From a virus (Duplodnaviria > Heunggongvirae > Uroviricota > Caudoviricetes): a stretch of DNA of 22,453 nt. Numbering within the stretch: position 1 is the stretch's first letter; the number at the start of each line of letters is the position of its first letter. The stretch spans positions 1 through 22,453 of IMG/VR virus record IMGVR_UViG_2718217868_000005; one strand, given 5' to 3'. The notes under the pieces are model-generated. The model was given only the letters and a program-made list of their open reading frames with translations, ran no database searches and had not been told where the DNA came from. Positions 2,777-21,400 of the stretch are shown piece after piece. The position numbers were made by a program, and so were the translations under genes.

Positions 2777-2855
2777 TTGCCTGAAATTTAAGCTGTTTAA
2801 AATCATGATGTTAGAAGCATTGTTTTTTAACGATGGCGACAAAATGGCGGCAGCG

Positions 2856-7491: not shown

Positions 7492-7944
7492 TTATACCGC
7501 CATTCCAGCACTTCGGTCACTGGCGCTGAATGTCAGCATTTCAGTGCCCAGACTGGCAGGGTCATCAGTGGCAGCCAGGCCGACCAGGTAGGCTTTGCCC
7601 GTATCAGCAAACTTCGGGCTGACTTCCATAGAGGTGAATAATTTCTGGCCTTTTTTCACCAGTTCCACCAGGGACTCCGTTGGCTCAACGTCGGCATACA
7701 GCGCCATCTTGCCTGCCAGCGGACCTTCCGTGATTTCTTCAGCAAACAGCGCCGTCACCTTACCGTAGCGGTTAAAGGTGCTGTCCGGCAGATAAGACTT
7801 GATGTGCTCAAGGTTAATCAGCGCGGTATACACCGCCGGGTTGTAGCTGGCTGCCATCTGTTCCAGCCATTCACGCTGGATTTCGCGTCCGTCGGTGGTG
7901 GCACCTTCCACCCCGATGCGAAAACGCTTTGCTTTCACTGTCAT
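7492..7944 (-). pseudogene. O: Capsid scaffold gene O, truncated (N-terminal about 140 aa homologous, then a short unrelated tail)
   Basis: FRIGVEGATTDGREI...INLEH...SMEVSPKFADTGKAYLVGLAATDDPASLGTE matches the N-terminal half of P2 gpO (about 284 aa) from memory. The ORF stops 26 nt before the T start. SD ACGGAG upstream of the ATG at 7944. Confidence 0.8.
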
Positions 7945-8022
7945 GAGCCGTGCTCCGTTAGAAAAAACTTACTGGAGCCTTATGGTTGCGGTGATGGGGG
8001 CAGTGAAACAATGCGCGGTATT

Positions 8023-8040
8023 TGTACCGACAACCACACA
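8023..8040. promoter_or_regulatory. TGT-N12-ACA element, candidate Ogr-dependent late promoter site in the O-P divergent region
   Basis: TGTACCGACAACCACACA sits in the 142-bp O/P intergenic region. P2 late promoters carry a TGT-N12-ACA element near -55 (established knowledge). Which strand it serves is not resolved. Confidence 0.4.
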
Positions 8041-8086
8041 AACCGCAGGCGGGGAAAGCCTTCATTCAAGGTTGTAGGTTTGTGCC

Positions 8087-9853
8087 ATGAACACCACACT
8101 GACACCCGCAGATCTCGATCCCCGTCGGCAGGCCATGCTGCTGTACTTTCAGGGATACCGCGTAGCCCGCATTGCTGAAATGCTGGGCGAGAAAGTTGCA
8201 ACCGTTCACAGCTGGAAAAAACGCGACAAGTGGGGTGACTATGGGCCGCTGGATCAGATGCAGCTCACCACCGCCGCACGCTACTGCCAGCTCATCATGA
8301 AGGAGCACAAAGAAGGGAAAGATTTCAAAGAGATTGACCTGCTGGCGCGCCAGTCGGAGCGCCAAGCGCGGATCGGCAAGTTTAACAATGGCGGCAACGA
8401 AGCTGACTTAAACCCTAACGTCGCCAACCGCAACAAAGGCCCGCGCCGTCAGCCGGAAAAGAATGTCTTCACCGATGAACAGATTGAGAAGCTGGAAGAA
8501 ATCTTCCATTCCTCCATGTTCAACTACCAGCGCCACTGGTGGGAAGTCGGAAAAACCAACCGCATCCGCAACCTGCTGAAGTCACGCCAGATCGGCGCGA
8601 CCTTTTACTTTGCCCGTGAAGCCCTGATTGACGCCCTGCTTACCGGACGTAACCAGATTTTCCTTTCCGCCAGTAAGGCACAGGCCCACGTCTTTAAGCA
8701 GTACATCATCGACTTCGCCAAAGAAGTGGATGTGGAACTGAAAGGCGATCCGATGGTGCTTCCTAACGGGGCCACGCTTTACTTCCTCGGCACCAATGCC
8801 CGCACGGCTCAAAGTTATCACGGCAACCTGTATCTGGATGAATATTTCTGGATACCGAAATTTCAGGAGCTACGCAAAGTGGCTTCCGGTATGGCTATTC
8901 ACAAGAAATGGCGGCAGACCTATTTTTCCACACCATCCAGCCTGACCCACAGTGCTTATCCGTTCTGGTCCGGTGCGCTGTTCAACCGTGGGCGCAACAA
9001 AGCCGATAAGGTGGACATCGACCTGTCCCACAGCAATCTGGCCCCCGGCCTGCTGTGCGCAGACGGGCAATACCGCCAGATAGTCACCGTGGAAGATGCG
9101 GTGCGCGGCGGCTGTAACCTGTTCGACCTTGACCAGTTGCGCATGGAGTACAGCCCGGACGAATACCAGAACCTGCTGATGTGCGAGTTTGTGGACGATC
9201 TCGCGTCCGTGTTCCCGCTCAGCGAGCTGCAGGCGTGCATGGTAGACAGCTGGGAAGTCTGGACTGACTTTCATGCACTGGCCCTGCGCCCGTTTGGCTG
9301 GCGCGAAGTATGGATCGGTTATGACCCGGCGAAAGGTACGCAGAATGGCGACAGCGCCGGATGCGTGGTGGTGGCTCCGCCAACCGTGCCGGGCGGCAAG
9401 TTCCGCATTCTTGAGCGTCACCAGTGGCGCGGAATGGACTTTCGCGCCCAGGCTGACGCCATCAAAAAACTGACCGAACAGTACAACGTGACCTACATCG
9501 GCATCGACTCGACAGGTGTCGGCCACGGGGTTTACGAGAACGTGAAAGCGTTTTTTCCAGCCGTCCGGGAGTTTGTCTACAACCCCAACGTTAAAAACGC
9601 CCTGGTACTCAAGGCCTACGACATTATCAGTCACCGTCGTCTGGAGTTTGACGCCGGACACACCGACATAGCGCAGTCATTTATGGCAATCCGTCGCGCC
9701 ACCACCGCCAGCGGCAACCGCCCAACCTATGAAGCCAGCCGCAGCGAAGAAGCCAGCCATGCCGATCTGGCCTGGGCAACAATGCACGCACTGTTTAACG
9801 AACCGCTGCAGGGCGAGTCCGCCAATACCAGCAATATTGTGGAGATTTTTTGA
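8087..9853 (+). CDS. P: Terminase large (ATPase) subunit, P2 gpP family, 588 aa
   Basis: Size and N-terminus match P2 gpP from memory. Divergent from O and upstream of Q as in P2. Confidence 0.9.
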   Translation: MNTTLTPADLDPRRQAMLLYFQGYRVARIAEMLGEKVATVHSWKKRDKWGDYGPLDQMQLTTAARYCQLIMKEHKEGKDFKEIDLLARQSERQARIGKFNNGGNEADLNPNVANRNKGPRRQPEKNVFTDEQIEKLEEIFHSSMFNYQRHWWEVGKTNRIRNLLKSRQIGATFYFAREALIDALLTGRNQIFLSASKAQAHVFKQYIIDFAKEVDVELKGDPMVLPNGATLYFLGTNARTAQSYHGNLYLDEYFWIPKFQELRKVASGMAIHKKWRQTYFSTPSSLTHSAYPFWSGALFNRGRNKADKVDIDLSHSNLAPGLLCADGQYRQIVTVEDAVRGGCNLFDLDQLRMEYSPDEYQNLLMCEFVDDLASVFPLSELQACMVDSWEVWTDFHALALRPFGWREVWIGYDPAKGTQNGDSAGCVVVAPPTVPGGKFRILERHQWRGMDFRAQADAIKKLTEQYNVTYIGIDSTGVGHGVYENVKAFFPAVREFVYNPNVKNALVLKAYDIISHRRLEFDAGHTDIAQSFMAIRRATTASGNRPTYEASRSEEASHADLAWATMHALFNEPLQGESANTSNIVEIF

Positions 9854-10902
9854 TGGGAAAGAGTAAGAAAAACCGCGCTGCGGCGACGAACCAGATCCAG
9901 CATAAAAACCAAACTTCAGCCGAAGCATTCAGCTTCGGTGATCCCGTTCCTGTTCTGGACCGCCGCGAACTGCTGGACTATGTGGAATGCGTACAGACAG
10001 ATCGCTGGTATGAGCCACCAGTAAGCTTTGACGGACTGGCGCGCACCTTCCGCGCTGCCGTGCATCACAGTTCACCAATTGCGGTGAAATGCAACATTCT
10101 GACCAGTACCTACATCCCTCACCCGCTGCTCAGCCAGCAGGCTTTTTCACGTTTTGTGCAGGACTATCTGGTATTTGGTAACGCCTACCTGGAGAAACGC
10201 ACGAACCGCTTCGGTGAAGTTATCGCCTTTGATCCTGCTCTGGCAAAATACACCCGACGCGGGTTAGACCTAGATACCTACTGGTTTGTGCAATACGGTA
10301 TGACAACCCAGCCGTATCAGTTCACGAAAGGCAGCATTTTTCATCTGATGGAACCGGATATTAATCAGGAGATCTACGGCCTGCCCGGCTATCTTTCTGC
10401 CATTCCGTCCACCCTGCTCAATGAGTCCGCCACGCTGTTCCGTCGAAAGTATTACATTAACGGCAGTCATGCTGGCTTCATCATGTACATGACCGACGCT
10501 GCGCAGAACCAGGAGGATGTGAACAACCTCCGCAACGCGATGAAAAGCGCCAAAGGTCCAGGCAACTTCCGCAACCTGTTTATGTACTCGCCTAACGGCA
10601 AAAAGGACGGGCTTCAGATCATCCCGTTGTCAGAAGTCGCAGCGAAAGATGAATTTCTGAACATCAAGAACGTGAGTCGTGATGACATGATGGCCGCGCA
10701 TCGTGTTCCGCCACAGATGATGGGGATTATGCCGAATAATGTTGGGGGTTTTGGGGATGTGGAAAAAGCGAGCCGTGTCTTCGTCCGCAATGAACTGATG
10801 CCGCTGCAAAAGCGGCTGCAGGAGCTGAATTACTGGCTAGGTAAAGAGGTGATCCGCTTCGAGCCCTACACGCTGGGAATAGACACAAACAACGATAGCT
10901 AA
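9853..10902 (+). CDS. Q: Portal protein, P2 gpQ family (about 349 aa)
   Basis: ATG at 9853 overlaps the P stop (TGATG); GGAG at 9841-9844. The ORF track's TTG at 9850 is a less likely start. Sequence resembles P2 gpQ from memory. Confidence 0.9.
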   Translation: MGKSKKNRAAATNQIQHKNQTSAEAFSFGDPVPVLDRRELLDYVECVQTDRWYEPPVSFDGLARTFRAAVHHSSPIAVKCNILTSTYIPHPLLSQQAFSRFVQDYLVFGNAYLEKRTNRFGEVIAFDPALAKYTRRGLDLDTYWFVQYGMTTQPYQFTKGSIFHLMEPDINQEIYGLPGYLSAIPSTLLNESATLFRRKYYINGSHAGFIMYMTDAAQNQEDVNNLRNAMKSAKGPGNFRNLFMYSPNGKKDGLQIIPLSEVAAKDEFLNIKNVSRDDMMAAHRVPPQMMGIMPNNVGGFGDVEKASRVFVRNELMPLQKRLQELNYWLGKEVIRFEPYTLGIDTNNDS

Positions 10903-10909
10903 ATTTAAA

Positions 10910-10940
10910 AGCAGCGCCTCTGCTTGTTAAAGGCGCTGCT
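10910..10940. terminator. Bidirectional hairpin between the convergent Q and 223-aa ORF
   Basis: Perfect 9-bp stem AGCAGCGCC / GGCGCTGCT with a 13-nt loop. On the minus strand it is followed by TTTAAATTT. Confidence 0.5.
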
Positions 10941-10953
10941 AAGCCTCAAGAAA

Positions 10954-11625
10954 TTATCGCTCTTCCCCAAGAATTCCGGTCTTAATCAGCTGATTCCAGA
11001 AGTTTTTCATTTTCTGTCCTGTCTGCTGATTAACAAATAGAGATGATCTGGCACCGTGCGGATATCCCATCAACTGCCCGCGCATATCTTCCCAATTTTC
11101 ACAATAAACTGCATGCCGCCAGTTAGGAACCTCGCTTTCAAGCATCAATCCAATTGCTGCTTTTGCTGGAATGGTGCCATCCTCTTCCATATCTTCCGAA
11201 ATAAGCCAATGGCATTTTATTAACAACGGGACGGCGTTGTCATTATAAAGCACAACGTCATCAATCTTCTCAATAGAGAAATGGGCATCCGTGTGCTTTA
11301 GACGTTTTATACCAGCTATAAATTCATCAACCCCATGACCATAAGGACAGGTAAGAATGCCGTTCCTGAAATAGACCGTGTGGTCCAGGTATTTAAAGCT
11401 AGGAGTATTATTGGGAGTCATAGGCGCCCAAATAGCTTTATCTCTTTCCAGCAAAAAAGGATGCCATGCTGGATACCCATCCACTACTGGCCCACATTCT
11501 TCAACAATTTCTTTGAGCTTCGCCCTAACTTTCGAACGCATCTCCTGATTTGAACCTTGTGGAACTAGATATCTGTAAGCATTTTCGAAATTCGATGCTG
11601 CTGCTTCTTCCGCTCTGAAAGCCAT
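10954..11625 (-). CDS. Hypothetical cargo protein (223 aa), function unknown
   Basis: Intact ORF with SD-like GGGGTG about 7 nt upstream of the ATG at 11625. Lower GC than the flanking phage core. Lies between portal Q and the cos-like site, where P2 has essentially no coding sequence. No motif I recognise. Confidence 0.6.
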   Translation of the reverse strand: MAFRAEEAAASNFENAYRYLVPQGSNQEMRSKVRAKLKEIVEECGPVVDGYPAWHPFLLERDKAIWAPMTPNNTPSFKYLDHTVYFRNGILTCPYGHGVDEFIAGIKRLKHTDAHFSIEKIDDVVLYNDNAVPLLIKCHWLISEDMEEDGTIPAKAAIGLMLESEVPNWRHAVYCENWEDMRGQLMGYPHGARSSLFVNQQTGQKMKNFWNQLIKTGILGEER

Positions 11626-11643
11626 AAAACACCCCGCAATATA

Positions 11644-11665
11644 GATACATTACGCACAATGTATC
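11644..11665. promoter_or_regulatory. Perfect palindrome GATACATT-N6-AATGTATC overlapping the putative promoter of the 223-aa ORF
   Basis: 8-bp arms with a 6-bp spacer, 19-40 bp upstream of the ATG. Candidate minus-strand -35 TTGCAA (11680-11685), 17-nt spacer, -10 TACATT (11657-11662). Confidence 0.45.
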
Positions 11666-11845
11666 AATTTCATGCACAAGTTGCAATGTTTGTGTTTTAC
11701 CGCTTAAGCCAATTCCCTCAATAAACAACCTCAACAACTTCCTGTGGGGCGGTTTTTTTGCTGCTGCACCTCACCATTTCAATTTGAAGCCGCTAGCGGG
11801 CCGTAGGCTGTGCCGAGTTTTTGCTATTTCACCTCGTTGCGCGCG

Positions 11846-11864
11846 CTCGTATCCCCGCCACGCC
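11846..11864 (-). other. Candidate cos site (cohesive-end sequence)
   Basis: Minus strand reads GGCGTGGCGGGGATACGAG. The first 13 nt match my recollection of the 19-nt cohesive ends of 186 (GGCGTGGCGGGGAAAGCAT) and P2 (GGCGAGGCGGGGAAAGCAC). Orientation is correct: it reads from cos toward Q. Confidence 0.4.
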
Positions 11865-12060
11865 TGCCCACTTTATGTAGTGGTTTTCATGCACCTGCAT
11901 GATCTACGCAAAAGCCCGCCAGTTCTGGCGGACCTTAGCAAAAACGATCCGCAAACGATCATGCGATCTCATGCGGCATAGTCATGCACTTACGGGGGAA
12001 GTGAAATCCCGTAACCGAATGACCGCTTGAAAAACAAAACTCTCGTTTTTATAAAGCACA

Positions 12061-12086
12061 AAGTCCGCTTCGAGCGAAGCGGACTT
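12061..12086. terminator. Hairpin downstream of the KAP NTPase gene
   Basis: AAGTCCGCTTCG / CGAAGCGGACTT, a perfect 11-12 bp stem, about 63 nt after the stop at 12150, with T/A-rich flanks. Confidence 0.5.
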
Positions 12087-12149
12087 TAATAATTTTACTG
12101 ACCATGTCTAGTACTTCTAATAATATTACCTATGTTAATCAACAAAATG

Positions 12150-14042
12150 TTAATCAGTTCCCTCAGTAAATAATTTGATTGCATTAGTTAGTGCATAGTC
12201 AATAAAAAACTTTACATGAAAAACCTGAAAGGAGTTATTGGCTGCGTTTTGAGTGAAATCTACAGCTATCTCTTTTAGGCTAATCAACCAGTTGTATTCT
12301 TCGGTCAGTCTGGTTCTGGCATCCCTATCAGAATAACGATCCCTCAAGCTAAATGCCAGTTTCCTCATGATGATTGGGTCAAGTTTCCTATAGCTTTCAA
12401 TGAAAACTTCAGGAGAAACCAAGTGTAAAAAAGGCACGTTATGAAGATTTAGCTGCCTATTATTAGAATGACACAATTCAGATACAAACGATAAATTCCC
12501 TCTTTGCAACTCATCGCTGAACTTCAATGCAAACTCCGGAATTGATTCATCAAACCGTTTCTTCTGCGCTATCTTAATATGCTCAATAATGAGTTTGAAT
12601 TCATCGCTATCCCTGTCAAGAAAACCAAAGCCACGCCATGCCATTAACTCATTATAATGTCTTTGCGCATACTCCTGATGTATATCTTCAGGTCCTAATC
12701 CATTGTAATAAATATCTATATGATGTTTTGTCTCATTTATAATGTCATCAACAGCATCTGTGGTTAAACCTTCTTTCGCCAATGCCAGCAAAATACTCGC
12801 GGTCATCAGGAGTTCACCTAAGGAAGTGATCTTACCTGAAAATAGATTATCCTTGGCAATGGCGTACTGTTCATTAAGCATAGTTTCATTAAGTTCTCGA
12901 TAGTTCCACAAATACTCCCATGCTTGGGCATCGGTGCTTCTAAAAAATCGCGTAATATCCAGCTGAGCGAGAAGATCATGCGTTACCTTTCCATCACAGA
13001 TTAGCTCTCTCCAGTACGCACCATCCAGCAACGTCTCGGTTAATACAGGTGATGAATATTTCTCGACGATCATGTCATACTTAGTTTTGGTACGCCCTTT
13101 ATCTAAAAACATACTATAATTTACATTGCCGATTGAATTGAAATCCTCGTAGTTAAGGTTCCCTCCCCGATACTCCATCGAGAAAATTAATAACTGCTGG
13201 AAAAATACTTTCATAAAATCGTCGTTGCTGACATATTTATCTCCCAAAAGGGAAATGATGCGTTGTACATCAAGAAAGAACTGCCTCAAATGTCTTAGAT
13301 TATTATATTTCGCCGACACATAGAGGTGTTCTATGGTCTGCATATCTTCTTTAAATATATTAGCTACGTGTAAACTACTAATTACGCCCAAGAAAACATT
13401 ACAAGCACTATGTAAATCTGACGTTACTTCAAATGTTTTACCTACAAGCTTTTCTTTTGTTCTTATGTATTCACTGCTAGATTTCTCATCATCATTATTT
13501 ATTCGCTTTTCTCTGTTGATTATTTCTTCTTCATTGGCAACCAGGATCGCTTTGTATCCGTTTACTTCTACAAAGTGATTTATATATCCAAATAAGATTG
13601 GTAAATCTATACCAGCTCTCTCGATATCATCAAAGACCAGCACAAAACCATCTGGTTCTCTGCTAAAGTCGCTAAGATTAATGGTGGGGACACTGGCATT
13701 GACATCTACGTCAGGCTTATTATCGCCATTGAAATCGATCTTGAAAGTAGCCTTAAGCGTATTTTTTAGTACATTTGCACCAAAGATAAGGGCTTTGTTT
13801 GATAGAATAGGATGAAGTTGACGATAGAACTCATCTTCAATCTGCTCAATAGAGTTGACGCCATACAAACTCACTTTAAGAAATTTGAACTCTGAATGCT
13901 TTTGCTTATATTCTTCAAGAACTCGTTCAATGAACCAAGTTTTACCTGATCCCCAAGCACCTTTAAGCATAATGGCGTATTGAGGTTCAGTTTTAAGGCT
14001 AAGGTAATATTCTATATAGTCTTTGATGTACGTATTGTGCAT
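12150..14042 (-). CDS. KAP-family P-loop NTPase (about 630 aa), candidate anti-phage defence protein
   Basis: Walker A GAWGSGKT and Walker B-like FVLVFDDIER (the hhhhDD-x-ER form typical of KAP NTPases). Strongly AT-rich. Start placed at the ATG at 14042 (MHNTYIKDY); the track's TTG at 14093 has no SD. Candidate minus-strand -10 TATAAT at 14152-14157. Confidence 0.7.
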   Translation of the reverse strand: MHNTYIKDYIEYYLSLKTEPQYAIMLKGAWGSGKTWFIERVLEEYKQKHSEFKFLKVSLYGVNSIEQIEDEFYRQLHPILSNKALIFGANVLKNTLKATFKIDFNGDNKPDVDVNASVPTINLSDFSREPDGFVLVFDDIERAGIDLPILFGYINHFVEVNGYKAILVANEEEIINREKRINNDDEKSSSEYIRTKEKLVGKTFEVTSDLHSACNVFLGVISSLHVANIFKEDMQTIEHLYVSAKYNNLRHLRQFFLDVQRIISLLGDKYVSNDDFMKVFFQQLLIFSMEYRGGNLNYEDFNSIGNVNYSMFLDKGRTKTKYDMIVEKYSSPVLTETLLDGAYWRELICDGKVTHDLLAQLDITRFFRSTDAQAWEYLWNYRELNETMLNEQYAIAKDNLFSGKITSLGELLMTASILLALAKEGLTTDAVDDIINETKHHIDIYYNGLGPEDIHQEYAQRHYNELMAWRGFGFLDRDSDEFKLIIEHIKIAQKKRFDESIPEFALKFSDELQRGNLSFVSELCHSNNRQLNLHNVPFLHLVSPEVFIESYRKLDPIIMRKLAFSLRDRYSDRDARTRLTEEYNWLISLKEIAVDFTQNAANNSFQVFHVKFFIDYALTNAIKLFTEGTD

Positions 14043-14370
14043 TTTTAGTCCATTTTGATAAAATACATAAACATAGATGGTAAGTAGAGCCAAAGGCCAA
14101 CTATGGAAAATTCAATAGGTAGTGTACATTGTAAGGTTATTATTGGTAAATATTATAGGAATACCCATAATCTTACAAAATTCAGATTATCCGTTGCAAA
14201 TTAGTCTGCCATTCGTTAATTGACGAAAGATAGCAGAAGAAACGTTCGCTTCTGGCACAAAGTGGACGATCATTTATCAAAATGCCCCCCCACCTTACGC
14301 CTTACGCCTTATTTCACTCATTGCCCAAACTAGCCCCCATTCGAATGAATCCTCTTGGGGGCAACGTTTC

Positions 14371-14604
14371 TTAATGCAGCCAGCTGTCGTCTTCCCACAC
14401 TTTCTGCATAATTTTCATCACTTGTTTTCTTTCTTCGTCCAGTTGCAGTCCGGTAAGTTCCACACCGTTAGAGCTACCTTTACGGATACGGATTACCGTT
14501 TTGGGATACAGGGGGCGCAGATTGCGGTAAAGCTCGGATTCAAGGGCGTCCAGGATAGACTGGCTAATCTTCTGCTCTTTATCGATCATTATTTCAATGC
14601 GCAT
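14371..14604 (-). CDS. DinI-family protein (77 aa)
   Basis: MRIEIMIDKEQ...LYRNLRPLYP...KVWEDDSWLH resembles E. coli DinI from memory. SD GAGGTG 5 nt upstream of the ATG at 14604. Second gene of the LexA-box operon. Confidence 0.75.
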   Translation of the reverse strand: MRIEIMIDKEQKISQSILDALESELYRNLRPLYPKTVIRIRKGSSNGVELTGLQLDEERKQVMKIMQKVWEDDSWLH

Positions 14605-14614
14605 AAAAGTCACC

Positions 14615-14803
14615 TCAACTGATGACATCCATTGAGCGGTTGTATTCGTGGGTTCTGATTTTTGCCATGAGTTCATCTGTTAGTTCAGAAACCCACTGCA
14701 AAGCCAGCCCCTTCTCTTCATCACTACACTCACTAGCCGCTACAAGCTTAAGAAAAAAATCAATGCGCTGGAGCTTCAAAGACTCCAAAAAATAGTCCTG
14801 CAT
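14615..14803 (-). CDS. Small SOS-regulated protein (62 aa), possible Tum-like antirepressor
   Basis: ATG at 14803 preceded by AGGAGG with a 4-nt spacer. Its stop overlaps the DinI SD. Lies about 30 bp downstream of the LexA box. The longer 97-aa version would include the LexA box and is rejected. Confidence 0.5.
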   Translation of the reverse strand: MQDYFLESLKLQRIDFFLKLVAASECSDEEKGLALQWVSELTDELMAKIRTHEYNRSMDVIS

Positions 14804-14834
14804 CTTTCCTCCTATGACACCACACGCAATACTG

Positions 14835-14854
14835 TATGTATAACTACTGTTTAT
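14835..14854. promoter_or_regulatory. LexA (SOS) box TACTGTTTATATTTACAGTA
   Basis: Perfect CTGT-N8-ACAG palindrome with an AT-rich spacer, matching the consensus TACTGTATATATATACAGTA. Overlaps the likely promoter of the small ORF/DinI operon. Confidence 0.75.
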
Positions 14855-14956
14855 ATTTACAGTATATAATAATCTTACTGATGTAAAACGTTTTTTTACG
14901 TTCATCATCCTGATATGCCTGGTATTATTAAGAGCACGAATTGTTAACCCGCGTAA

Positions 14957-17371
14957 TTAATACAGGTTCCGCCACTGATCATCTTCCTGCAAACGCTGGT
15001 TCCGATAGAAGATACGCAGGCCTGCTCCTGACGGAATACTGCCTCCGCGAAGGAGTAAATCGACCTCTTTCTCGCTGCCATCAAATCCTCTGGACTTCAG
15101 CTCATACACGAGCTGCAGTCGCTGATGGTCTGTAATTCGCTGTTTGTAGTCTTTACGCCGTTTCGGTTTCACCAGGCGTAACCTTGCTGCCAGTTCCCGG
15201 CGCTCTTTTTTGCTCATACTGTGCAGGTAATCGTGCAACTCCTTGTCATCCATGCTGGTAATGTCCGTTCTGGGGTCCCCATCAGCTGATTTATCTTTCT
15301 CCTGTTGGTTCAAATTTTCAGCAAGGGGACAGTTATTGCCACGAGTCCAAGGGGCGCAAGCGCCCTGGTCGGCTGCCGCCTCCTGAACGTCAACGGCTTT
15401 ACGGACCATTTTCCACTTCACTGCATGAGTGCAGATCTTGCCCTCTGCAATGGGTGACCAGATGCCATAAATACGAATACCGTGATCGCCATAGGCGGTC
15501 GGCTCTTCGTTGATTTCATAAGCGGTTCTGATGAGGTGATATTTACGGGGAACCAGTACGCCGCCCTGCTTCATGATGTAGGTGGCAAAGCAACCAGCAT
15601 CAGCTGCAGCCAGAATGGCATCAAGGCGCGGGTTATCCAGTACCGGCGCACCTGCTTTTTTGTCACCCTGTTGCCTTGCCGCCTGACCAGCCAGCAATCG
15701 CAGTTCACGGTAAGCCTGACGCCCCGGAATGCCAAAGAAGCGGAATTGCTGAACACGATGCAGAGACGCCCAGGCATTAACGTATTCAGCGTTATCACGC
15801 AGAGATTTACCCGTTTCCTTGCTGATCTCGCCAGCCAGACCACGCCCGTCAATGTTCTTACTGATGTATTTCGCGATGTAGCTTGTTGGTGTACCTTTGC
15901 GCGGGTTTATCAGCTCAGACTTAAAGCGTGGTCCTGTGTTATTACCCAGCTCCTCGCGGTCTTCACGAATGGCAAACTTACGCAACAAAGCAGTAATGGC
16001 GCGGCGATCTTTTTTGCGCATAAAACACAACAGGTGCCAGTGAACTGTACCGTCATGATGCGGCTCAGCCACCCGCACGCCATACCAGCGCAATCCGGCT
16101 TTGTACATCGCCTTACGAAATGCAGCAAACATGCCGACCAGATAATCACTGCTTTGTCTTACCGTCGCATTTGTCCAAGTCGGGTTGGGCCTGCCGTTAT
16201 TTAGCGTGGAATGGAAACGTGACGGACAGGTGATGGTGTAGAAAACGGCGCAGTCACCGCGCATTCCCGCGATAAGCTCCAGACCTTTAACACATGCCAT
16301 CATCTCATTGCGGCGATGCGCCGGGTTGCTACTACTGGCATTTACCACGTCCTCCATATCCAGCGTGTCGCCGTCTTCGTTCACCAGTTCATGAGAACGG
16401 AAAAACTCCAGCGACTTACGGCGCTGCTCACGTTTATGCATCACGGCTTCATAGCTGACATAGGGAGATGCTTTTTTGCTGACCAGGCAAACAGCACGCA
16501 ACTGCTCTTCCCGCCATTCGCAACGCATCTTCCATAATTTCCGATACCACCAGTCGGCGCACAACATACGCGCCAGCGAACCCGGAATGAGTTCATAGGG
16601 TACGGGTTTACGGCGGTTTCTTTTCCGGCGGAGTTGCTCAAACGCAGGAGGGATGACATCCAGACGCAGGGTTTCCGCCGCCACCCTTTCCCATGTCTTG
16701 CGGATTTCTTCTGGCTTAACGTCATCGGTGGCATACAAATCACCACAAGCTGCATCAAGGCACATGCTCATATGCGCGGCAACAAGGGTAGACAGGCGCT
16801 TCACCTGATCCTGACTCATTTCAGGCAAGATCAGCAGGCCGTCCAGCCCTTCATGGCTTGCCATAAAACGAAAAGATGCAGATAGCTGGCTGTCGCGTAC
16901 ATGCTCCAGTCGTTCCAGACATGGTTTAATCGTCTCACGCAAATAGCGGGAATAAGCCTTTGGCCTGCCCAGGCTGCTGAAGTATTCAATACGTTGCATC
17001 AGCGGCTTGCTGATATGGGAAGGCTGGGCGTTAACGTCCGCCAGTATGACCATGTCCGGATTAAAACGCTGCTGCTCATGCACCAGCTTTGCCCGGCTAA
17101 TGAGCTTATCCTGCTCCATTTCGCGCTGGACAGGATCACGGGATTCATTAAAGAAATAATGCTCCCAGACCTGATCACTCAGTGCCTCGCGGCGCAGTTG
17201 TTCCTGCTTGTTATCGGCAGCGTACAGAGTGATCAGGTTTGAAAGCGCAGAAACCGGCGCAACTTCCGCCGGGTCCAGATAAGGGTTAATCGCCTTTTTC
17301 GGGCTGTTCCATGAGAATGCTGCGGCGGCCTCGTTAAAGCCGCTGCAGTTGTTCATATCAGCATGGCTCAT
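14957..17371 (-). CDS. A: Replication initiation endonuclease, P2 gpA family (804 aa)
   Basis: Size, position and motifs ([30 protein letters not shown]) match P2 gpA from memory. SD ACGGAG upstream. Start overlaps the dam stop (ATGA). Confidence 0.9.
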
Positions 17372-18225
17372 GCACGCACTCCGTACACGGCAGAACTATC
17401 CACGCCACGCGAAGGATCAAATCCCACCCAGCAGCGCGCCCCAGAAACAGCGATGATTTCTGTTGCAGATTTACTCTCACCAGCTGCTACGCCGATGCTG
17501 CGTTTTGCCTTGATGTAGTGGTGAGTAAAATTGCGATACAGCGAACGGATCAGGGATGTGTCACTGTTAGAAACAATGACCGGATGTCCTTCTGATGACC
17601 GATGTTCAAGAACGGATGCCAGGTGATACTGGTCATCTTCAGTGAAACCATCAGTGTGATAGCTGGAAAACGTACCGTCATACGGCGGATCGCAATACAC
17701 CACATCCCCCGCCTTCAACATCGCCAGCGTTTCATCAAAGCTGGCGCAGATAAACGTTGCTCGTTGGGCTTTCTCTGCAAATGCGCGAATTTCTTTTTCA
17801 GGGAAATACGGATTTTTATAATTACCGTAGGGAATGTTGAAATGCCCGCTCTTGTTATAGCGACATAACCCACGGTAACCGTGACGATTGAGATACAGGA
17901 AATATACCGCTTTCATGAAATCAGTAATTTCAGTTGAGTAATTAAACTCCTGCCTTATGTTGTAATAAGCCACCTCCCTGTTTGCTTCCTTAAATAAAAC
18001 TCTGGCGCGAGATATAAACGATTCACAATCAGCGGCAACCTTTTTATAGAGGTTGATTAAATCAGGATTAATATCCGCAACCAGATAGCTGGGATAACCC
18101 GTCTCCATCATCACAGCACAGGAACCCGCGAAAGGTTCAACCAGTCGCGGGCCAGCTGGAAGATGTTTTTTCAGTTCGGACATTACGGCGGTTTTATTTC
18201 CCGCCCATTTCAGGATGGTGCTCAT
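17368..18225 (-). CDS. DNA adenine methyltransferase (Dam-like), about 285 aa
   Basis: N-terminal ILKWAGNK and catalytic DPPY motifs. Start at the internal ATG ([11 protein letters not shown]), which overlaps the upstream traR-like stop (ATGA). Confidence 0.85.
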
Positions 18226-18449
18226 ACAGCACCTCCGTTGTAATGTTTGCCTTTCAGCTCTGCGATTTCCTGACAGGTAATGCAAAGCTGCACACCTGGA
18301 ATGGCGCGGCGGCGTGCTGGCGGAATTGGCGCTTCACACTCAATGCAAAGCACGCGGGACACGCCCGGCGTTTTGGCACGGGCAGCACGGATATGGCGCT
18401 GGCGTTCTTCTTCAACGCGCTGCTGTACGAGATCCATTGCATCAGCCAT
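18222..18449 (-). CDS. TraR/DksA-family C4 zinc-finger protein (75 aa)
   Basis: CIECEAPIPPARRRAIPGVQLCITC is a CxxC-N17-CxxC zinc finger typical of phage TraR/DksA-like proteins. Translationally coupled to the neighbours on both sides. Confidence 0.75.
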   Translation of the reverse strand: MADAMDLVQQRVEEERQRHIRAARAKTPGVSRVLCIECEAPIPPARRRAIPGVQLCITCQEIAELKGKHYNGGAV

Positions 18450-18688
18450 TAGTGGATCTCCTGCGCTTCGTTCTGGATTGCTTCAGCAGTTACACGCAGT
18501 AGTTCTGCTGCTTCGACGTGGTTTAGCTGGCGGGATGTGATATGACACGCCAGGCTATCAAGGCGAGCTGCCATTGCTTCAGCCCTTGCCCGGCGTTCTT
18601 CCAGACGAGCCTCTGTCAGTAATATATTAAGCCCTGCATCATCCGGTCCGGTTTTAGTCTTGAGGGTTTCAATATTACGCATAATCAA
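18449..18688 (-). CDS. Hypothetical phage early-region protein (79 aa)
   Basis: Intact ORF in the early operon. Its stop overlaps the traR-like start (TAATG). Confidence 0.55.
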   Translation of the reverse strand: MIMRNIETLKTKTGPDDAGLNILLTEARLEERRARAEAMAARLDSLACHITSRQLNHVEAAELLRVTAEAIQNEAQEIH

Positions 18689-18749
18689 TTCTCCTGAATT
18701 TAGATAAAGGGATATCCGGCGGGTTTACGCCATTAATTTCATTAGTTGG

Positions 18750-19091
18750 TTAATTCGGCATGGTTAGCCGTCTGGGAAATAAGCTCACCACTGCACGAAA
18801 ATGATTCATTGCTTTAATCAACTCCCGCTTTTCGTCAGTGGTCAGCTCATTAATGCTGATGCTATGACGTTCAGCTGGAATTTTTGCCATAAAGAATATG
18901 GCAGCCAGTGCTCGTTTATTCTGTTCGTTATTGATATCCCGTGGATCACGCATATCTTTAATAAACCGCTCAAGCTCTGACTCAATATTCAGGCCAAATA
19001 CTTTCGCCCTTAACTCCGCAATGTGATTAAGTCCATTCAGGCGTTCACCGGGGCTTAATGGAACAGTTGCTGCAGCGCCATTAATTGCCAT
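18750..19091 (-). CDS. Hypothetical phage early-region protein (113 aa)
   Basis: Intact ORF in the early operon. No motif I can name. Confidence 0.55.
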   Translation of the reverse strand: MAINGAAATVPLSPGERLNGLNHIAELRAKVFGLNIESELERFIKDMRDPRDINNEQNKRALAAIFFMAKIPAERHSISINELTTDEKRELIKAMNHFRAVVSLFPRRLTMPN

Positions 19092-19113
19092 ACTTCATAT
19101 CCCCCAAACGCAG

Positions 19114-19338
19114 CTATCGTTCTTTGTTCTTACGGTAACGCTCAAGAGGAGATACATTTTTTCGTATCGTCTCTTTAACCTGCTCTCCCCGTAAAAACGT
19201 CCCATCCTTTAACGCGAAAAAGTAACTGCCATCGCCCGACAATGACGGATAGCAACAGAGCAAATCATCTTCAGGTACTGAATAACTCTCCCCTCTGTAA
19301 CGAAACTGATAAACCACTTCACTTTCTGCCGCATACAT
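19114..19338 (-). CDS. Hypothetical phage early-region protein (74 aa)
   Basis: ATG preceded by GGAGAAAG. Protein-like composition. Confidence 0.5.
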   Translation of the reverse strand: MYAAESEVVYQFRYRGESYSVPEDDLLCCYPSLSGDGSYFFALKDGTFLRGEQVKETIRKNVSPLERYRKNKER

Positions 19339-19505
19339 TTGGACTTTCTCCGTTTCCTCGTGGTCAATTCAGACAGCAATTCATCTTGTGAATGACATGG
19401 ATGCCAGCGTTTTCCATCCTCACCCGTGATCCAGCCGTGACCGTAGTGCATTGCCGGGCTTTGTTTTACCAGCAGCGATGCAAATGATGGTTCTTTCGTC
19501 AGCAT
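19209..19505 (-). CDS. Hypothetical small protein just downstream of cII; its 3' part overlaps the 74-aa ORF out of frame
   Basis: ATG at 19505 preceded by GAGGTG, 7 nt after the cII stop. The first 55 aa look protein-like; the tail (CMRQKVKWFISF...) looks like out-of-frame read-through. Confidence 0.4.
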   Translation of the reverse strand: MLTKEPSFASLLVKQSPAMHYGHGWITGEDGKRWHPCHSQDELLSELTTRKRRKSKCMRQKVKWFISFVTEGRVIQYLKMICSVAIRHCRAMAVTFSR

Positions 19506-19512
19506 AAGCACC

Positions 19513-20031
19513 TCACAGCAAACCGAATGAAGCACCGAGGCCAGTCACGGTATCAACTGCACTCGCCATCGCAGGGTTAGCCTGTAAACGGGCCTGCAAT
19601 GAAACAGCAGCCAACGCCATCAGTCGTGTTACAGAGTTAATGCTGCTGATAGCATCACGACGACCTGCACTGGTTTTTACATCGCCAGATACCGCACCTG
19701 CAGCAACACGCCCGATCTCTGCGGTTGCACTCATGACGTAATGTGGCAGTTTCTCTTTTGCCACCTCATTAATTGGTACGCATGGCAGGCAGTGAATCTG
19801 TGCCAGAAAACCATCTACCAACGTTGAATCTTCAGTCAGATCGGTAAGCAGCCAGATTTCTGGTGCGGTTAATAAATGAGGTTGAGCTGGGTTCAGCTTG
19901 TTCCGCAGAATCTGCACATTCATGCCCGCACGTTCTGCCAGTTGCACCAGATTGTGGCGCAGTGCGAATGCACGACAGGCTTCATCAAAATGTGGATGTT
20001 TGGAAACTTGGTAATCAAACATGGTTTTCAA
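19513..20031 (-). CDS. cII: CII-like lysogeny-establishment regulator (186 CII family), about 170 aa
   Basis: HTH region [18 protein letters not shown] and overall sequence resemble phage 186 CII from memory. Follows apl in the early rightward operon. The true start may be the ATG three codons in (MFDYQ). Confidence 0.75.
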
Positions 20032-20086
20032 CTCCGAACTTATCGCAAAATCGAACTCAGCGTCTTATTGCGAAAATAGACGTCTA

Positions 20087-20290
20087 TTAAGCAGACAAAG
20101 CATCAACAGTCAGAGCAGCCAGGTTAATCATTACCTTTTCACGTTTTTTGTCTTTACGAAGACGATGACGAGGTAGTCGGCCATCAGCCAACATGTCGTT
20201 AATCGTATCAATAGAAAGGCCAGTCAGTTCGCTATAACGTTCGATTGTGACATGTGGTGTATTCAGAGTAATTGAAATGTTAGGTGTCAT
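20087..20290 (-). CDS. apl: Apl/Cox-like excisionase and transcriptional regulator (67 aa)
   Basis: Small HTH protein ([22 protein letters not shown]), first gene of the operon divergent from cI, as for 186 apl and P2 cox. Confidence 0.65.
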
Positions 20291-20379
20291 AAGGCAACAT
20301 TCCTTCTAGATATGGCTTGTGGCGAGCCGTTGTTTGTCGTGATTAGTAGTGAAGGCTCCAAAAGAACACTTCTGGTTCA

Positions 20380-20408
20380 ACTTTAAGATCGCTTTTGGAA
20401 TCTGTCAA
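20380..20408 (-). promoter_or_regulatory. Candidate lytic promoter (pR-like) for the apl-cII operon
   Basis: On the minus strand: TTGACA (20403-20408), 17-nt spacer, TAAAGT (20380-20385), about 80 nt upstream of the apl ATG. The matching lysogenic promoter was not located. Confidence 0.35.
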
Positions 20409-20435
20409 CGAATTTTGGATTTCTTTGGAGGACTT

Positions 20436-21005
20436 GTGGATTTCAATAGCGGCGGTAAGAAAGCCATAGAACGTTTAGTTGAAGCATATGGGTTCGGTAC
20501 CCGTCAGGCTCTCTGTGATCATTTAGGTGTTTCTAAGAGCACCATGGCAACGCGCTATATGCGTGATATTTTTCCAGCAGATTGGGTAATCCAGTGCGCC
20601 CTTGAAACGGGCACCTCGCTTAATTGGCTAACAACAGGGCATGGTTCAAAGCAAGCATCAGCAAATACAAATACTATAGAAGTAGAAAAATATTTATTGT
20701 CTGATGGAGCATTGCAGAAAGACGGTTTTTATATTTTTGATAAGGAATTTCTACCCTCTACGTTTAAAAAACCTTTTGTCATCACAGATAACAATTCTGA
20801 ATTTATTTGTGATAAAGAATTTGATGATATACGTGATGGTAAATGGGTAATAAGTATTGATGGCGAAATAACGATCCGTGACATTACTCGTTTACCCGGT
20901 GGAAGAATCTTCGTCGAGGGTGGAAACAGAGCCTTCGAATGCAAGATAGAAGACATTGAAATAATTGGTAAAATTATAAGTTTAACAGTCAAATATGTTA
21001 AATAG
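20436..21005 (+). CDS. cI: CI-type immunity repressor (phage 186 CI family), about 189 aa
   Basis: Start placed at the in-frame GTG at 20436 directly after GGAGGA; the track's upstream GTG at 20349 has no SD. Position between apl and int matches the 186 arrangement. Family assignment is from memory. Confidence 0.7.
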   Translation: MDFNSGGKKAIERLVEAYGFGTRQALCDHLGVSKSTMATRYMRDIFPADWVIQCALETGTSLNWLTTGHGSKQASANTNTIEVEKYLLSDGALQKDGFYIFDKEFLPSTFKKPFVITDNNSEFICDKEFDDIRDGKWVISIDGEITIRDITRLPGGRIFVEGGNRAFECKIEDIEIIGKIISLTVKYVK

Positions 21006-21020
21006 TACCGGGAGGAAACT

Positions 21021-21212
21021 ATGCTTGGTAAGGTATTTTTTGTGGTTTTGTCATGTTCTTTGTTATTAAACCCACTAACTACCTATGCTAGAAATTATCC
21101 CTGCTCAGGGAAAAAGGGAGGTGTTTCTCACTGTACCTCAGATGGCAAATTCGTTTGCAATGATGGAACTATTAGTAAATCCAAAAAAATCTGTACTAAA
21201 AACTCACGATAA
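21021..21212 (+). CDS. Small secreted Cys-rich basic peptide (63-aa precursor)
   Basis: Strong SD GGAGGA 4 nt before the ATG. N-terminal signal peptide ([23 protein letters not shown]) with a likely cleavage site after TYA. Predicted mature part is about 40 aa with 4 Cys and many Lys. Lies between cI and int. Confidence 0.55.
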
Positions 21213-21400
21213 CTTTTGCTTTTATATCTGCGTCTAAAACAAAAATGAGCCGCAGGTTAACCGCAAAAGTTACATGCTCACATAGCAAAAAGAATAGCCA
21301 ACTTCATTATGGCTTCAGTGAGATGTATGGTCGTAGGATTTCATACATTGACACTGGTTATACATACAGTAAAAATGCTCTCTACTGGAGGGCATTTTTT

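What the first reader, a model, noticed from the sequence alone, without database searches (positions are those of the whole stretch)
14371..14908. LexA-box-controlled operon (62-aa protein plus DinI-like) next to gene A: candidate SOS induction module
A perfect SOS box overlaps the promoter of a two-gene operon with strong SD sites. In phage 186, prophage induction depends on a LexA-repressed antirepressor (Tum) encoded at the same relative position, and the immunity region here is 186-like. The 62-aa protein is much shorter than 186 Tum (about 146 aa), so it may be a compact antirepressor or something else. The DinI-like protein could modulate RecA.
Basis: partly seen in the sequence, partly recalled or inferred. 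Interest (0 to 1): 0.55.

Follow-up and report, generated by a model that had tools for sequence, protein, structure and literature searches.

The report
Known SOS-triggered prophage induction switch
This is the DNA-damage "wake-up" switch of a P2/186-like prophage: a LexA-repressed promoter driving a small antirepressor and a DinI-like helper. The same module, 98% identical, has already been shown genetically to be needed for prophage induction, so the finding is correct but ordinary.

Summary
On the minus strand, 150 nt downstream of replication gene A, a sigma-70-like promoter (TTTACA, 17 nt, TACTGT) overlaps a perfect LexA box at 14845-14864. The promoter drives a 62-aa ORF (14803-14615) and a 77-aa DinI-family ORF (14604-14371).

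This is the "split tum" SOS operon of Fels-2/DuoHS-type P2-like prophages. The 62-aa protein is a stand-alone homologue of the N-terminal domain of 186 Tum (profile-profile probability 96%, P = 2e-9). The 77-aa protein corresponds to Tum's DinI-like C-terminal half and to PSP3 TumB.

The literature already says Fels-2 and PSP3 have tum split in two, with the upstream gene as the antirepressor. In E. coli HS, an in-frame deletion of the 98%-identical gene abolishes mitomycin C induction.

My additions:
- A second, overlapping, colicin-like LexA box is present in 23 of 33 relatives but absent from 186- and PSP3-type operons.
- The DinI-like gene is dispensable: it is missing in 13 of 33 loci.
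- Antirepressor type tracks the CI N-terminal domain, not the C-terminal domain.
- The prophage in this window has lost 12 kb of late genes.

The parts
14882..14887 (-). -35 hexamer TTTACA of the SOS-operon promoter (equivalent of 186 p95)
   Evidence: Read directly from the sequence. It lies 17 nt upstream of TACTGT. A TTTACA-like hexamer sits at this position in 31 of 33 related loci. The layout matches annotated 186 p95.
14859..14864 (-). -10 hexamer TACTGT, which is also the first six bases of LexA box 1
   Evidence: It is analogous to the annotated 186 p95 -10, which is also TACTGT and also the start of the LexA site. The assignment is by analogy. The generic promoter scan did not call it.
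14845..14864 (-). LexA box 1: TACTGTAAATATAAACAGTA (18/20 to consensus, both half-sites perfect)
   Evidence: the only exact match in the window, and 0 of 100 shuffles gave one. Conserved in 32 of 33 distinct relatives.
14830..14849 (-). LexA box 2 (overlapping, offset 15 nt): CAGTAGTTATACATACAGTA. The right half-site is perfect and the left half-site is degenerate (GTA instead of CTG).
   Evidence: The pattern CTG-N10-CAGT-N11-CAG matches at 14832-14862, with 0.03 expected by chance. The ColE1 cea operator has the same architecture. A box 2 is present in 23 of 33 relatives, usually as CAGTGG...ACAGT. LexA binding to it was not tested.
14615..14803 (-). 62-aa antirepressor gene (tumA-like, a stand-alone Tum N-terminal domain), including the stop codon. 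SD AGGAGG at 14808-14813.
   Evidence: phrog_698 at 3.6e-38. hhalign against the 186 Tum N-terminus: probability 96.3%, P = 1.9e-9. 61/62 identical to E. coli HS ECHS_RS04495 and to Fels-2 STM2728. dN/dS 0.075. AlphaFold2 predicts a two-helix hairpin, pLDDT 89.5.
14371..14604 (-). 77-aa DinI-family gene (tumB-like), including the stop codon. Its SD, GAGGTGA, overlaps the tumA-like stop, so translational coupling is likely.
   Evidence: Pfam PF06183 at 1.3e-22. phrog_189 'RecA filament binding protein DinI' at 2.6e-29, aligned to profile positions 71-148 of 151. 77% identical to PSP3 TumB, 42% to the 186 Tum C-terminal part, 30% to E. coli DinI.
14333..14362 (-). Stem-loop GCCCCCA-N16-TGGGGGC directly after the operon, followed by UAGUUUG. 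Candidate weak or partial terminator, at the position of 186 t95a.
   Evidence: RNA fold and sequence. The U-tract is poor and the terminator scan did not call it, so this is inferred only.
20436..21005 (+). cI, the 186-type immunity repressor and presumed target of the 62-aa protein
   Evidence: Pfam Phage_CI_repr at 2.5e-31 and Phage_CI_C at 2.8e-29. 33% identical to 186 CI and 88% to DuoHS CI.
14957..17371 (-). Replication gene A (context: the SOS operon lies immediately 3' of it, as in 186, PSP3 and Fels-2)
   Evidence: Annotated as replication endonuclease in the 100%-identical ML35 locus. Same gene order in 186, Fels-2 and PSP3.

Best explanation
This is the SOS operon of a Fels-2/DuoHS-type P2-like (Peduoviridae) prophage, in other words a split version of the phage 186 tum gene.

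Proposed mechanism:
1. In an undamaged lysogen, LexA sits on box 1, which contains the -10 element, and probably also on the overlapping box 2. This shuts off the promoter.
2. DNA damage activates RecA and LexA cleaves itself, so the operon is transcribed.
3. The 62-aa two-helix protein, a homologue of the N-terminal domain of Tum, binds the 186-type CI repressor and keeps it off its operators. This derepresses the early lytic promoter.
4. The co-translated 77-aa DinI homologue binds RecA filaments and tunes the SOS signal. It is an accessory part.

Shown here: the sequence features, their conservation, and the homologies. Shown by others on orthologues that are 61/62 identical: LexA dependence of induction and the requirement for the 62-aa gene. 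Inferred: direct binding to CI, occupancy of box 2 by LexA, and the role of the DinI-like protein.

In this particular genome the prophage has lost its capsid, tail and lysis genes. Firing the switch here could at most derepress the early genes, and it cannot produce phage.
For: Anatomy: the ORFs, SD sites, promoter and boxes.

Same position and layout as 186 p95-tum, PSP3 tumA/tumB and Fels-2 STM2728/STM2726.1.

Homology of the 62-aa protein to the Tum N-terminal domain:
- The 62-aa protein hits phrog_698 (3.6e-38), phrog_8554 (2.4e-8) and phrog_1993, the PSP3 TumA family (2e-3).
- The 186 Tum N-terminus hits phrog_1993 (1.5e-23), phrog_8554 (3.4e-12) and phrog_698 (5.9e-6).
- hhalign of a 40-member diverse profile against the Tum N-terminus gives probability 96.3%, P = 1.9e-9, columns 4-44 on 4-44.

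DinI homology.

Operator conservation: box 1 in 32 of 33 relatives. A single LexA box is present in all 68 distinct 186-type and all 67 distinct PSP3-type upstream regions.

The core is operator plus 62-aa gene. The DinI-like gene is absent within 1.5 kb in 13 of 33 loci and damaged in 3 more.

The target is present: a 186-type CI, 88% identical to DuoHS CI.

Literature:
- PMC3121763: tum is split in Fels-2 and PSP3, and the upstream gene is the antirepressor.
- PMC12055606: deletion of ECHS_RS04495 and lexA(Ind-) each abolish mitomycin C induction of DuoHS. ECHS_RS04495 is the 62-aa gene.
- PMC7708051: Tum is the anti-CI factor expressed from LexA-regulated p95.
Against: - There is no pairwise BLASTP similarity between the 62-aa protein and 186 Tum or PSP3 TumA. 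The homology rests on profiles.
- There are no Pfam, NCBIfam or PADLOC hits for the 62-aa protein, and databases call it 'hypothetical protein'.
- The predicted fold is a generic helical hairpin that says nothing specific about function.
- Direct binding of this short form to CI has never been published as far as I could find. The PSP3 result is a personal communication cited second-hand.
- Box 2 in this window has GTA where relatives and ColE1 have GTG and the consensus has CTG, so it may bind LexA poorly.
- The prophage here is defective, so the module's normal output, phage production, cannot occur in this strain.
Confidence: 0.9

Rival explanations
1. The DinI-like 77-aa protein, not the 62-aa protein, is the element that triggers induction. 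It could do so by acting on RecA or CI. The 62-aa protein would then be an unrelated SOS-induced accessory such as a small toxin, a division inhibitor or a chaperone.
For: In 186 the two parts are one polypeptide, so sequence alone does not say which half inactivates CI. The 62-aa fold is uninformative. Gifsy prophages also pair dinI with an antirepressor.
Against: - The DuoHS deletion that abolishes induction removed only the 62-aa gene, fusing its start and stop codons.
- 13 of 33 loci keep the LexA box and the 62-aa gene but have no DinI-like gene, and Cronobacter phage ESSI-2 likewise.
- The 186 record annotates the DinI-only truncated products as modulators, not as the CI inhibitor.
- PSP3 antirepressor activity maps to the upstream gene.
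Confidence: 0.04
2. The repressor is inactivated directly by RecA-stimulated self-cleavage, as in lambda. The LexA-controlled operon would then only fine-tune the SOS response or serve the host.
For: The CI C-terminal region gives a faint Peptidase_S24 match (E = 0.006, 16.6 bits, below the 23.3-bit cut-off).
Against: - The match is below Pfam's threshold, while the curated Phage_CI_C family matches at 2.8e-29.
- The DuoHS tum deletion does not lyse after mitomycin C even though the SOS reporter still fires, so RecA activation alone is not enough. DuoHS CI is 88% identical to the CI here, and its last 69 residues are identical.
Confidence: 0.03
3. In this defective prophage the module has been co-opted. 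Its main present role would be SOS-dependent control of the downstream cargo, the KAP P-loop NTPase defence candidate, by read-through, rather than prophage induction.
For: - The late genes are deleted, yet the operon is intact and 100% identical to that of the intact ML35 prophage.
- The downstream gene is on the same strand behind only a weak hairpin.
- It is a PADLOC PDC-S49 candidate at 3.4e-161.
- In 186 the gene at this position, orf97, is transcribed from p95 through a partial terminator, and it blocks 186 infection when expressed from a plasmid.
Against: - The deletion occurs in only 2-3 of 5426 genomes and the flanks are 99.99% identical to ML35. It is therefore very recent, and intactness of the operon says nothing about selection.
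- A promoter-like TTGTAA/TATAAT lies between the operon and the NTPase gene, so the NTPase gene may have its own promoter.
- No expression data are available.
Confidence: 0.03

Closest known systems
Fels-2 STM2728/STM2726.1 and E. coli HS DuoHS 'tum' (ECHS_RS04495) with the DinI-like ECHS_RS04500
   Same: Essentially the same module. The 62-aa protein is 61/62 identical and the DinI-like protein 76/77 identical. The DNA is 96-97% identical, with the same promoter and the same box 1. The position after gene A is the same, and DuoHS shares the rcdA-ybjL integration site. In DuoHS the gene is required for mitomycin C induction.
   Different: Box 2 reads CAGTAG here and CAGTGG in Fels-2 and DuoHS. 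CI differs: 88% identical to DuoHS CI but only 38% to Fels-2 CI. The prophage here lacks 12.3 kb of late genes.
Phage 186 Tum (146 aa) expressed from the LexA-repressed p95 promoter
   Same: A LexA box containing the -10, a position downstream of gene A, and a 186-type CI as target. The N-terminal ~45 residues are homologous to the 62-aa protein at profile level. The C-terminal ~76 residues are 42% identical to the 77-aa protein. 186 also makes the DinI-like part separately, from internal starts.
   Different: In 186 there is one fused polypeptide instead of two genes. There is a single LexA box (68 of 68 186-type loci) rather than two overlapping ones. Pairwise identity of the antirepressor part is only about 19%, and BLASTP finds nothing.
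PSP3 tumA/tumB
   Same: The same split architecture: a ~60-aa upstream gene followed after a few bases by a 77-aa DinI homologue, behind a LexA box downstream of gene A. TumB is 77% identical to the 77-aa protein.
   Different: TumA belongs to a different PHROG (phrog_1993) and is only weakly linked to the 62-aa family (hmmscan E = 2e-3, hhalign P = 0.003). It is closer to the 186 Tum N-terminus. It has a single LexA box (67 of 67). The PSP3 CI has a duplicated N-terminal domain.
Colicin operon operators (for example ColE1 cea) with two overlapping SOS boxes
   Same: The same CTG-N10-CAGT-N11-CAG layout, with the second box starting 15 nt after the first. The Fels-2 box 2 core CAGTGGTTATATGTACAG is identical to that of ColE1. 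In colicin operons such operators bind two LexA dimers and prevent untimely, lethal expression (PMC2994835).
   Different: It controls an antirepressor, not a toxin and lysis operon. Binding of two LexA dimers has not been shown here. Box 2 in this window carries one more mismatch than ColE1's.
Gifsy/Fels-1 LexA-controlled antirepressors (GfoA, GftA, FsoA) with dinI in the same operon
   Same: A LexA-repressed operon that pairs a small antirepressor with a DinI homologue. Induction works by sequestering the repressor rather than cleaving it.
   Different: The gene order is reversed, with dinI first. The phages are lambdoid and their repressors belong to a different family. I did not test sequence similarity between those antirepressors and the 62-aa protein.

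Membership tests
186 Tum-type LexA-controlled antirepressor operon of P2/186-like phages | A LexA operator overlapping the promoter of the operon | tested here: met
   The perfect box at 14845-14864 contains the -10. It is conserved in 32 of 33 relatives. The layout matches annotated 186 p95.
186 Tum-type LexA-controlled antirepressor operon of P2/186-like phages | Located immediately downstream of replication gene A, on the same strand, in a phage with 186-type CI/Apl/CII immunity | tested here: met
   Gene order. Pfam Phage_CI_repr, Phage_CI_C and Phage_CP76. Same order in 186, Fels-2 and PSP3.
186 Tum-type LexA-controlled antirepressor operon of P2/186-like phages | Sequence homology to the N-terminal (non-DinI) part of Tum | tested here: met
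   hhalign probability 96.3%, P = 1.9e-9, same register. Reciprocal PHROG cross-hits. Pairwise BLASTP is negative, so this is a remote, profile-level homology.
186 Tum-type LexA-controlled antirepressor operon of P2/186-like phages | The gene is required for SOS induction of the prophage | not testable with these tools
   Published for the 61/62-identical DuoHS gene ECHS_RS04495 (PMC12055606). Not tested for this locus.
186 Tum-type LexA-controlled antirepressor operon of P2/186-like phages | The protein binds CI and prevents operator binding | not testable with these tools
   Known for 186 Tum (Shearwin et al. 1998, as cited). For the short form I found only a personal communication about PSP3 TumA.
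Split tum (tumA/tumB) arrangement as in PSP3 and Fels-2 | Two separate ORFs: a ~60-aa antirepressor part, then a ~77-aa DinI-like part a few bases downstream | tested here: met
   The stop is at 14615 and the next ATG at 14604, 10 nt later and in a different frame. The SD overlaps the stop. The arrangement is identical in Fels-2 and HS.
DinI family (PF06183) | A match to the family model above its curated threshold over the full domain | tested here: met
   80.4 bits against a 24.2-bit cut-off, profile positions 1-63 of 63. NCBIfam's DinI equivalog scores 42 bits against a 111-bit cut-off, so the protein is a family member but not an equivalog of host DinI.
DinI family (PF06183) | A conserved acidic C-terminal helix (W-E-acidic-acidic-W motif) | tested here: met
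   W70, E71 and W75 are invariant in the alignment with E. coli DinI, 186 Tum, PSP3 TumB, Fels-2 and HS.
DinI family (PF06183) | Binds RecA filaments and modulates co-protease activity | not testable with these tools
   Inferred from family membership only.
Colicin-type double overlapping LexA operator | Two 20-nt SOS boxes offset by 15 nt (CTG-N10-CAGT-N11-CAG) | tested here: met
   The pattern matches at 14832-14862, with 0.03 expected by chance. It gives the same single match in ColE1 upstream of cea. A second box is present in 23 of 33 relatives.
Colicin-type double overlapping LexA operator | Both boxes are occupied by LexA dimers | tested here: inconclusive
   Box 2 matches the consensus at 14 of 20 positions and has GTA in place of CTG. 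ColE1's proximal box is also weak on its own (HI 11.06). Binding needs a footprint.

The most novel reading that the evidence does not exclude
Two linked ideas are not excluded.

(1) The 62-aa antirepressor may recognise the conserved N-terminal DNA-binding domain of CI rather than the oligomerisation domain. Near-identical antirepressors (98%) serve CI proteins whose C-terminal domains are only 28% identical while their N-terminal domains stay about 70% identical. If so, Fels-2-type prophages with different CI C-terminal domains could cross-induce each other in polylysogens.

(2) This lineage, unlike 186 and PSP3, may have acquired a colicin-style double LexA operator. That would set a higher and later SOS threshold for induction.

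The first idea could also be an artefact of genetic linkage within the early region.
Probability: 0.3. Interest if true: 0.35.

Novelty: already known. Interest (0 to 1): 0.15.

Why it matters
The module decides when a very common family of E. coli, Salmonella and Klebsiella prophages wakes up after DNA damage. It is present in 1125 of 5426 complete E. coli genomes.

For this finding the answer is already in the literature, so the practical value lies mainly in annotation. Every database name I saw for the 62-aa protein is 'hypothetical protein' or a spurious 'levan regulatory protein'. It should be called a Tum-family (TumA-like) antirepressor.

Three comparative points could guide a short experimental study of induction thresholds and prophage cross-talk, but none of them is surprising to a specialist:
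- the double operator;
- the dispensable DinI-like gene;
- the tracking of antirepressor type with the CI N-terminal domain.

Tried and rejected
- Pairwise BLASTP of the 62-aa protein against 186 Tum and PSP3 TumA found no alignment.
- Pfam, NCBIfam and PADLOC gave nothing for the 62-aa protein.
- hhalign with shallow profiles built from near-identical loci was only borderline: probability 68%, P = 5e-5. It became convincing only with the diverse representatives.
- The HMMER search of 1.84 billion representatives did not reach 186-type Tum directly. It returned 86 hits, nearly all short stand-alone proteins.
- The AlphaFold2 model is confident (pLDDT 89.5), but Foldseek against the PDB gave only generic helical hairpins, best E = 0.68. 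This was rejected as functional evidence.
- The generic promoter and terminator scan called neither the promoter nor the hairpin after the operon. Both are assigned by analogy with 186.
- Bunny et al. 2002 (PMC151935), the primary paper on Fels-2 tum and lexA, is not held in the library.
- The search for 'TumA/TumB' in papers returned only unrelated uses of the word.
- PMC2994835 does not print the colicin operator sequences, so I read the ColE1 operator from the plasmid record instead.
- The test of whether the LexA-like site upstream of int is conserved failed. The 80 viral-contig relatives of this integrase are 99-100% identical, and Fels-2, the Yersinia phage, SopEPhi and the Klebsiella phage have cI and int abutting with no intergenic region.
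- Lambda-like CI self-cleavage was considered and rejected. The S24 match is sub-threshold, and the DuoHS tum deletion blocks induction.
Full report
**1. What is in the sequence**

All features are on the minus strand. Replication gene A (14957..17371) ends 150 nt upstream of the module.

The features, in order:
- TTTACA at 14887..14882.
- A 17-nt spacer.
- TACTGT at 14864..14859, which is also the start of the 20-nt palindrome TACTGTAAATATAAACAGTA (14864..14845).
- A second box-like 20-mer, CAGTAGTTATACATACAGTA (14849..14830), starting 15 nt after the first.
- AGGAGG, then ATG at 14803 opening a 62-codon ORF that stops at 14615.
- A second ATG at 14604, 10 nt after that stop and in another frame. 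Its SD (GAGGTGA) overlaps the stop codon. It opens a 77-codon ORF that stops at 14371.

The longer ORFs in the mechanical list (97 aa from 14908, 101 aa from 14676) run through the promoter or overlap the first gene and are not the real genes. RefSeq annotates the 62- and 77-aa versions in the 100%-identical E. coli ML35 locus.

**2. Is it more than chance?**

- The loose core CTGT-N8-ACAG is expected 0.25 times in this window, so it is weak evidence alone.
- The full TACTGT-N8-ACAGTA occurs once, and none of 100 shuffles gave a match.
- I fetched 33 loci from one-genome-per-species contigs of Escherichia, Citrobacter, Enterobacter, Klebsiella, Raoultella, Serratia, Pantoea, Erwinia, Tatumella and others. 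Their 62-aa proteins are 71-100% identical to the one here.
- Of 33 distinct upstream regions (32 of those loci plus the window), 32 keep a CTG-N10-CAG box with 15-19 of 20 matches to consensus. 31 keep a TTTACA-like hexamer 17 nt upstream of it. The spacer and leader sequences vary freely.
- The single exception, Siccibacter, also has the ORF truncated to 20 codons, so it is a pseudogene.
- The ORF has a median dN/dS of 0.075 at near-saturated dS. It is a real, constrained gene.

**3. What the two proteins are**

*The 77-aa protein.* It is a DinI-family protein:
- Pfam PF06183 at 1.3e-22, full domain.
- 77% identical to PSP3 TumB, 42% to the last 76 residues of 186 Tum, 30% to E. coli DinI, with the C-terminal W-E-D-D-x-W motif conserved.
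- It aligns to positions 71-148 of the 151-position PHROG profile phrog_189. That profile is built on full-length Tum-like proteins.

*The 62-aa protein.* It has no Pfam, NCBIfam or PADLOC match and no BLASTP similarity to 186 Tum or PSP3 TumA. Profiles link them nonetheless:
- It matches phrog_698 (3.6e-38), phrog_8554 (2.4e-8) and phrog_1993, the PSP3 TumA family (2e-3).
- The first 70 residues of 186 Tum match phrog_1993 (1.5e-23), phrog_8554 (3.4e-12) and phrog_698 (5.9e-6).
- A HMMER profile search of 1.84 billion representative proteins found a small family: 86 clusters, almost all 35-100 aa stand-alone proteins.
- An alignment of 40 diverse members (Neff 4.0), compared with an alignment of 186-type Tum N-termini, gave hhalign probability 96.3% and P = 1.9e-9. 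Columns 4-44 aligned to columns 4-44, including the conserved Cys26 and the Ala-Leu pair.

So the 62-aa protein is a stand-alone version of the Tum N-terminal domain. 62 + 77 aa accounts for the 146-aa Tum.

AlphaFold2 predicts a two-helix hairpin (helices 2-23 and 28-61, pLDDT 89.5). Foldseek against the PDB returns only generic hairpins, so the fold adds nothing about function.

**4. What is already known**

The DNA of the module is:
- 96-98% identical to Fels-2, RE2010, many Klebsiella P2-like phages and several E. coli phages;
- 100% identical to E. coli ML35, H5 and H6;
- present in 1125 of 5426 complete E. coli genomes.

The 186 record annotates p95, its LexA site, full-length Tum ('inhibits CI DNA binding') and internally initiated DinI-like products ('modulates SOS induction'). 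The PSP3 record annotates tumA ('similar to 5' end 186 tum; UV induction of prophage') and tumB ('similar to dinI and 3' end of 186 tum').

Lemire et al. 2011 write that Tum looks like an antirepressor fused to DinI. [quoted passage not shown] For this they cite Bunny et al. 2002 and a personal communication from G. Christie (PMC3121763).

Ortiz de Ora and colleagues ('Phollow', PMC12055606) deleted 'tum', locus tag ECHS_RS04495, in frame in the DuoHS prophage of E. coli HS. They found no lysis and no viral foci after mitomycin C, although the SOS reporter still fired. lexA(Ind-) had the same effect on induction. I checked that ECHS_RS04495 is the 189-nt gene directly upstream of the DinI-like gene and that its product is 61/62 identical to the protein here. 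DuoHS CI is 88% identical to the CI in this window.

**5. Mechanism**

*Shown by sequence:* the LexA box contains the -10, so bound LexA must occlude RNA polymerase. The two ORFs are arranged for coupled translation.

*Shown by others on orthologues:* induction needs cleavable LexA and the 62-aa gene. 186 Tum inactivates CI by binding it, and the process is limited by Tum's 'sequestration capacity' (PMC7708051).

*Inferred:* the 62-aa protein binds this CI, and the DinI-like protein modulates RecA filaments.

**6. What I can add**

(a) *A double operator.* The window matches CTG-N10-CAGT-N11-CAG, with 0.03 expected by chance. This is the architecture of the ColE1 cea operator, which I read from the plasmid record (CTGTATATAAAACCAGTGGTTATATGTACAG). 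Colicin operators of this kind bind two LexA dimers and prevent untimely expression (PMC2994835). A second box at offset 15 is present in 23 of 33 members of this lineage. It is present in none of 68 distinct 186-type or 67 distinct PSP3-type upstream regions, which all have one box. In this window box 2 reads CAGTAG where close relatives and ColE1 read CAGTGG, so it may be weakened.

(b) *The DinI-like gene is accessory.* It follows the 62-aa gene in 20 of 33 loci, and in three of those it is truncated or frameshifted. It is absent within 1.5 kb in 13 loci. The 41%-identical ESSI-2 homologue also has a LexA box and no DinI gene.

(c) *Antirepressor type tracks the CI N-terminal domain.* Over nine phages (36 pairs), antirepressor identity tracks CI N-terminal-domain identity (Spearman 0.88) but not C-terminal-domain identity (0.06). 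For example, window against Fels-2 gives antirepressor 98%, N-terminal domain 70% and C-terminal domain 28%. This suggests the antirepressor targets the DNA-binding domain. However, the pairs are not independent, and the pattern could reflect linkage of the 5' end of cI with the early operon. I rate it a hypothesis only.

**7. Context in this genome**

The window runs from host genes (ybjL, the RybB sRNA) through the prophage to int.
- Coordinates 7518-22453 are 99.99% identical to the ML35 prophage.
- At about 7518 the scaffold gene O is joined directly to the gpE/tape-measure region. This removes 12.3 kb: capsid, small terminase, holin, lysozyme, spanins, baseplate, fibres, sheath and tube.
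- The exact junction exists only in E. coli H5 and H6. A third genome covers the query as two separated pieces. That makes 2-3 of 5426 genomes.

This is a recent deletion. The SOS switch here is intact but controls a prophage that can no longer lyse the cell or make particles.

**8. Verdict**

The feature is already known: it is the Fels-2/DuoHS-type split tum operon, so interest is low. The useful residue is an annotation fix for a 'hypothetical protein' and three modest comparative leads.

Noticed in passing
window 21347-21371 (int ATG at 21401): The second-best LexA-like site in the window is CACTGGTTATACATACAGTA (16/20 to consensus, CTG-N10-CAG intact). It sits 30 nt upstream of the integrase start, and a perfect TTGACA abuts its 5' end. 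It is identical in E. coli HS. It might be an SOS-controlled int promoter. By chance alone it is not significant: 0.53 sites with 2 or fewer mismatches are expected.
   Followed up: partly
window 12150-14042 (-): A 630-aa KAP-family P-loop NTPase (Pfam PF07693, 1.4e-21) matches the PADLOC candidate defence system PDC-S49 at 3.4e-161. It lies directly downstream of the SOS operon on the same strand, at the position held by orf97 in 186. That gene is transcribed from p95 and blocks infection when expressed from a plasmid. Possible SOS read-through was not tested.
   Followed up: partly
window about 7518 (junction), compared with L004/L006: A 12.3-kb deletion joins the scaffold gene O to the gpE/tape-measure region and removes the capsid, lysis and tail genes. 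The exact junction is found only in E. coli H5 and H6, with one further genome matching in two pieces, out of 5426. The prophage here is a recent defective derivative of the ML35-type phage.
   Followed up: yes
window 5662-5673, compared with E. coli HS (L004 20036-20379): The tape-measure gene is about 340 bp shorter than in E. coli HS, probably an in-gene deletion or length variant.
   Followed up: no
window 2700-2778 (+): RybB sRNA (Rfam RF00110, 105 bits) lies next to the ogr end of the prophage, between ybjL and the phage. The attachment site of this prophage family lies in the rcdA-ybjL interval, next to rybB.
   Followed up: no
window 21021-21212 (+): A 63-aa ORF with an N-terminal hydrophobic, signal-like segment sits between cI and int. 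It is annotated as hypothetical in ML35 and HS. It is absent from Fels-2, SopEPhi and the Yersinia and Klebsiella relatives, where cI and int abut.
   Followed up: no
L286 2219-3079 (PSP3 cI): The PSP3 CI (286 aa) carries two tandem copies of the N-terminal helix-turn-helix domain, unlike 186 and the Fels-2-type CIs.
   Followed up: no
protein database hits P0001-P0120; phage records H19, H21, H46, H47: The 62-aa antirepressor is annotated everywhere as 'hypothetical protein', or spuriously as 'levan regulatory (domain) protein'. Many gene calls are extended to 84-101 aa through the promoter and LexA boxes. This is a systematic annotation error.
   Followed up: partly
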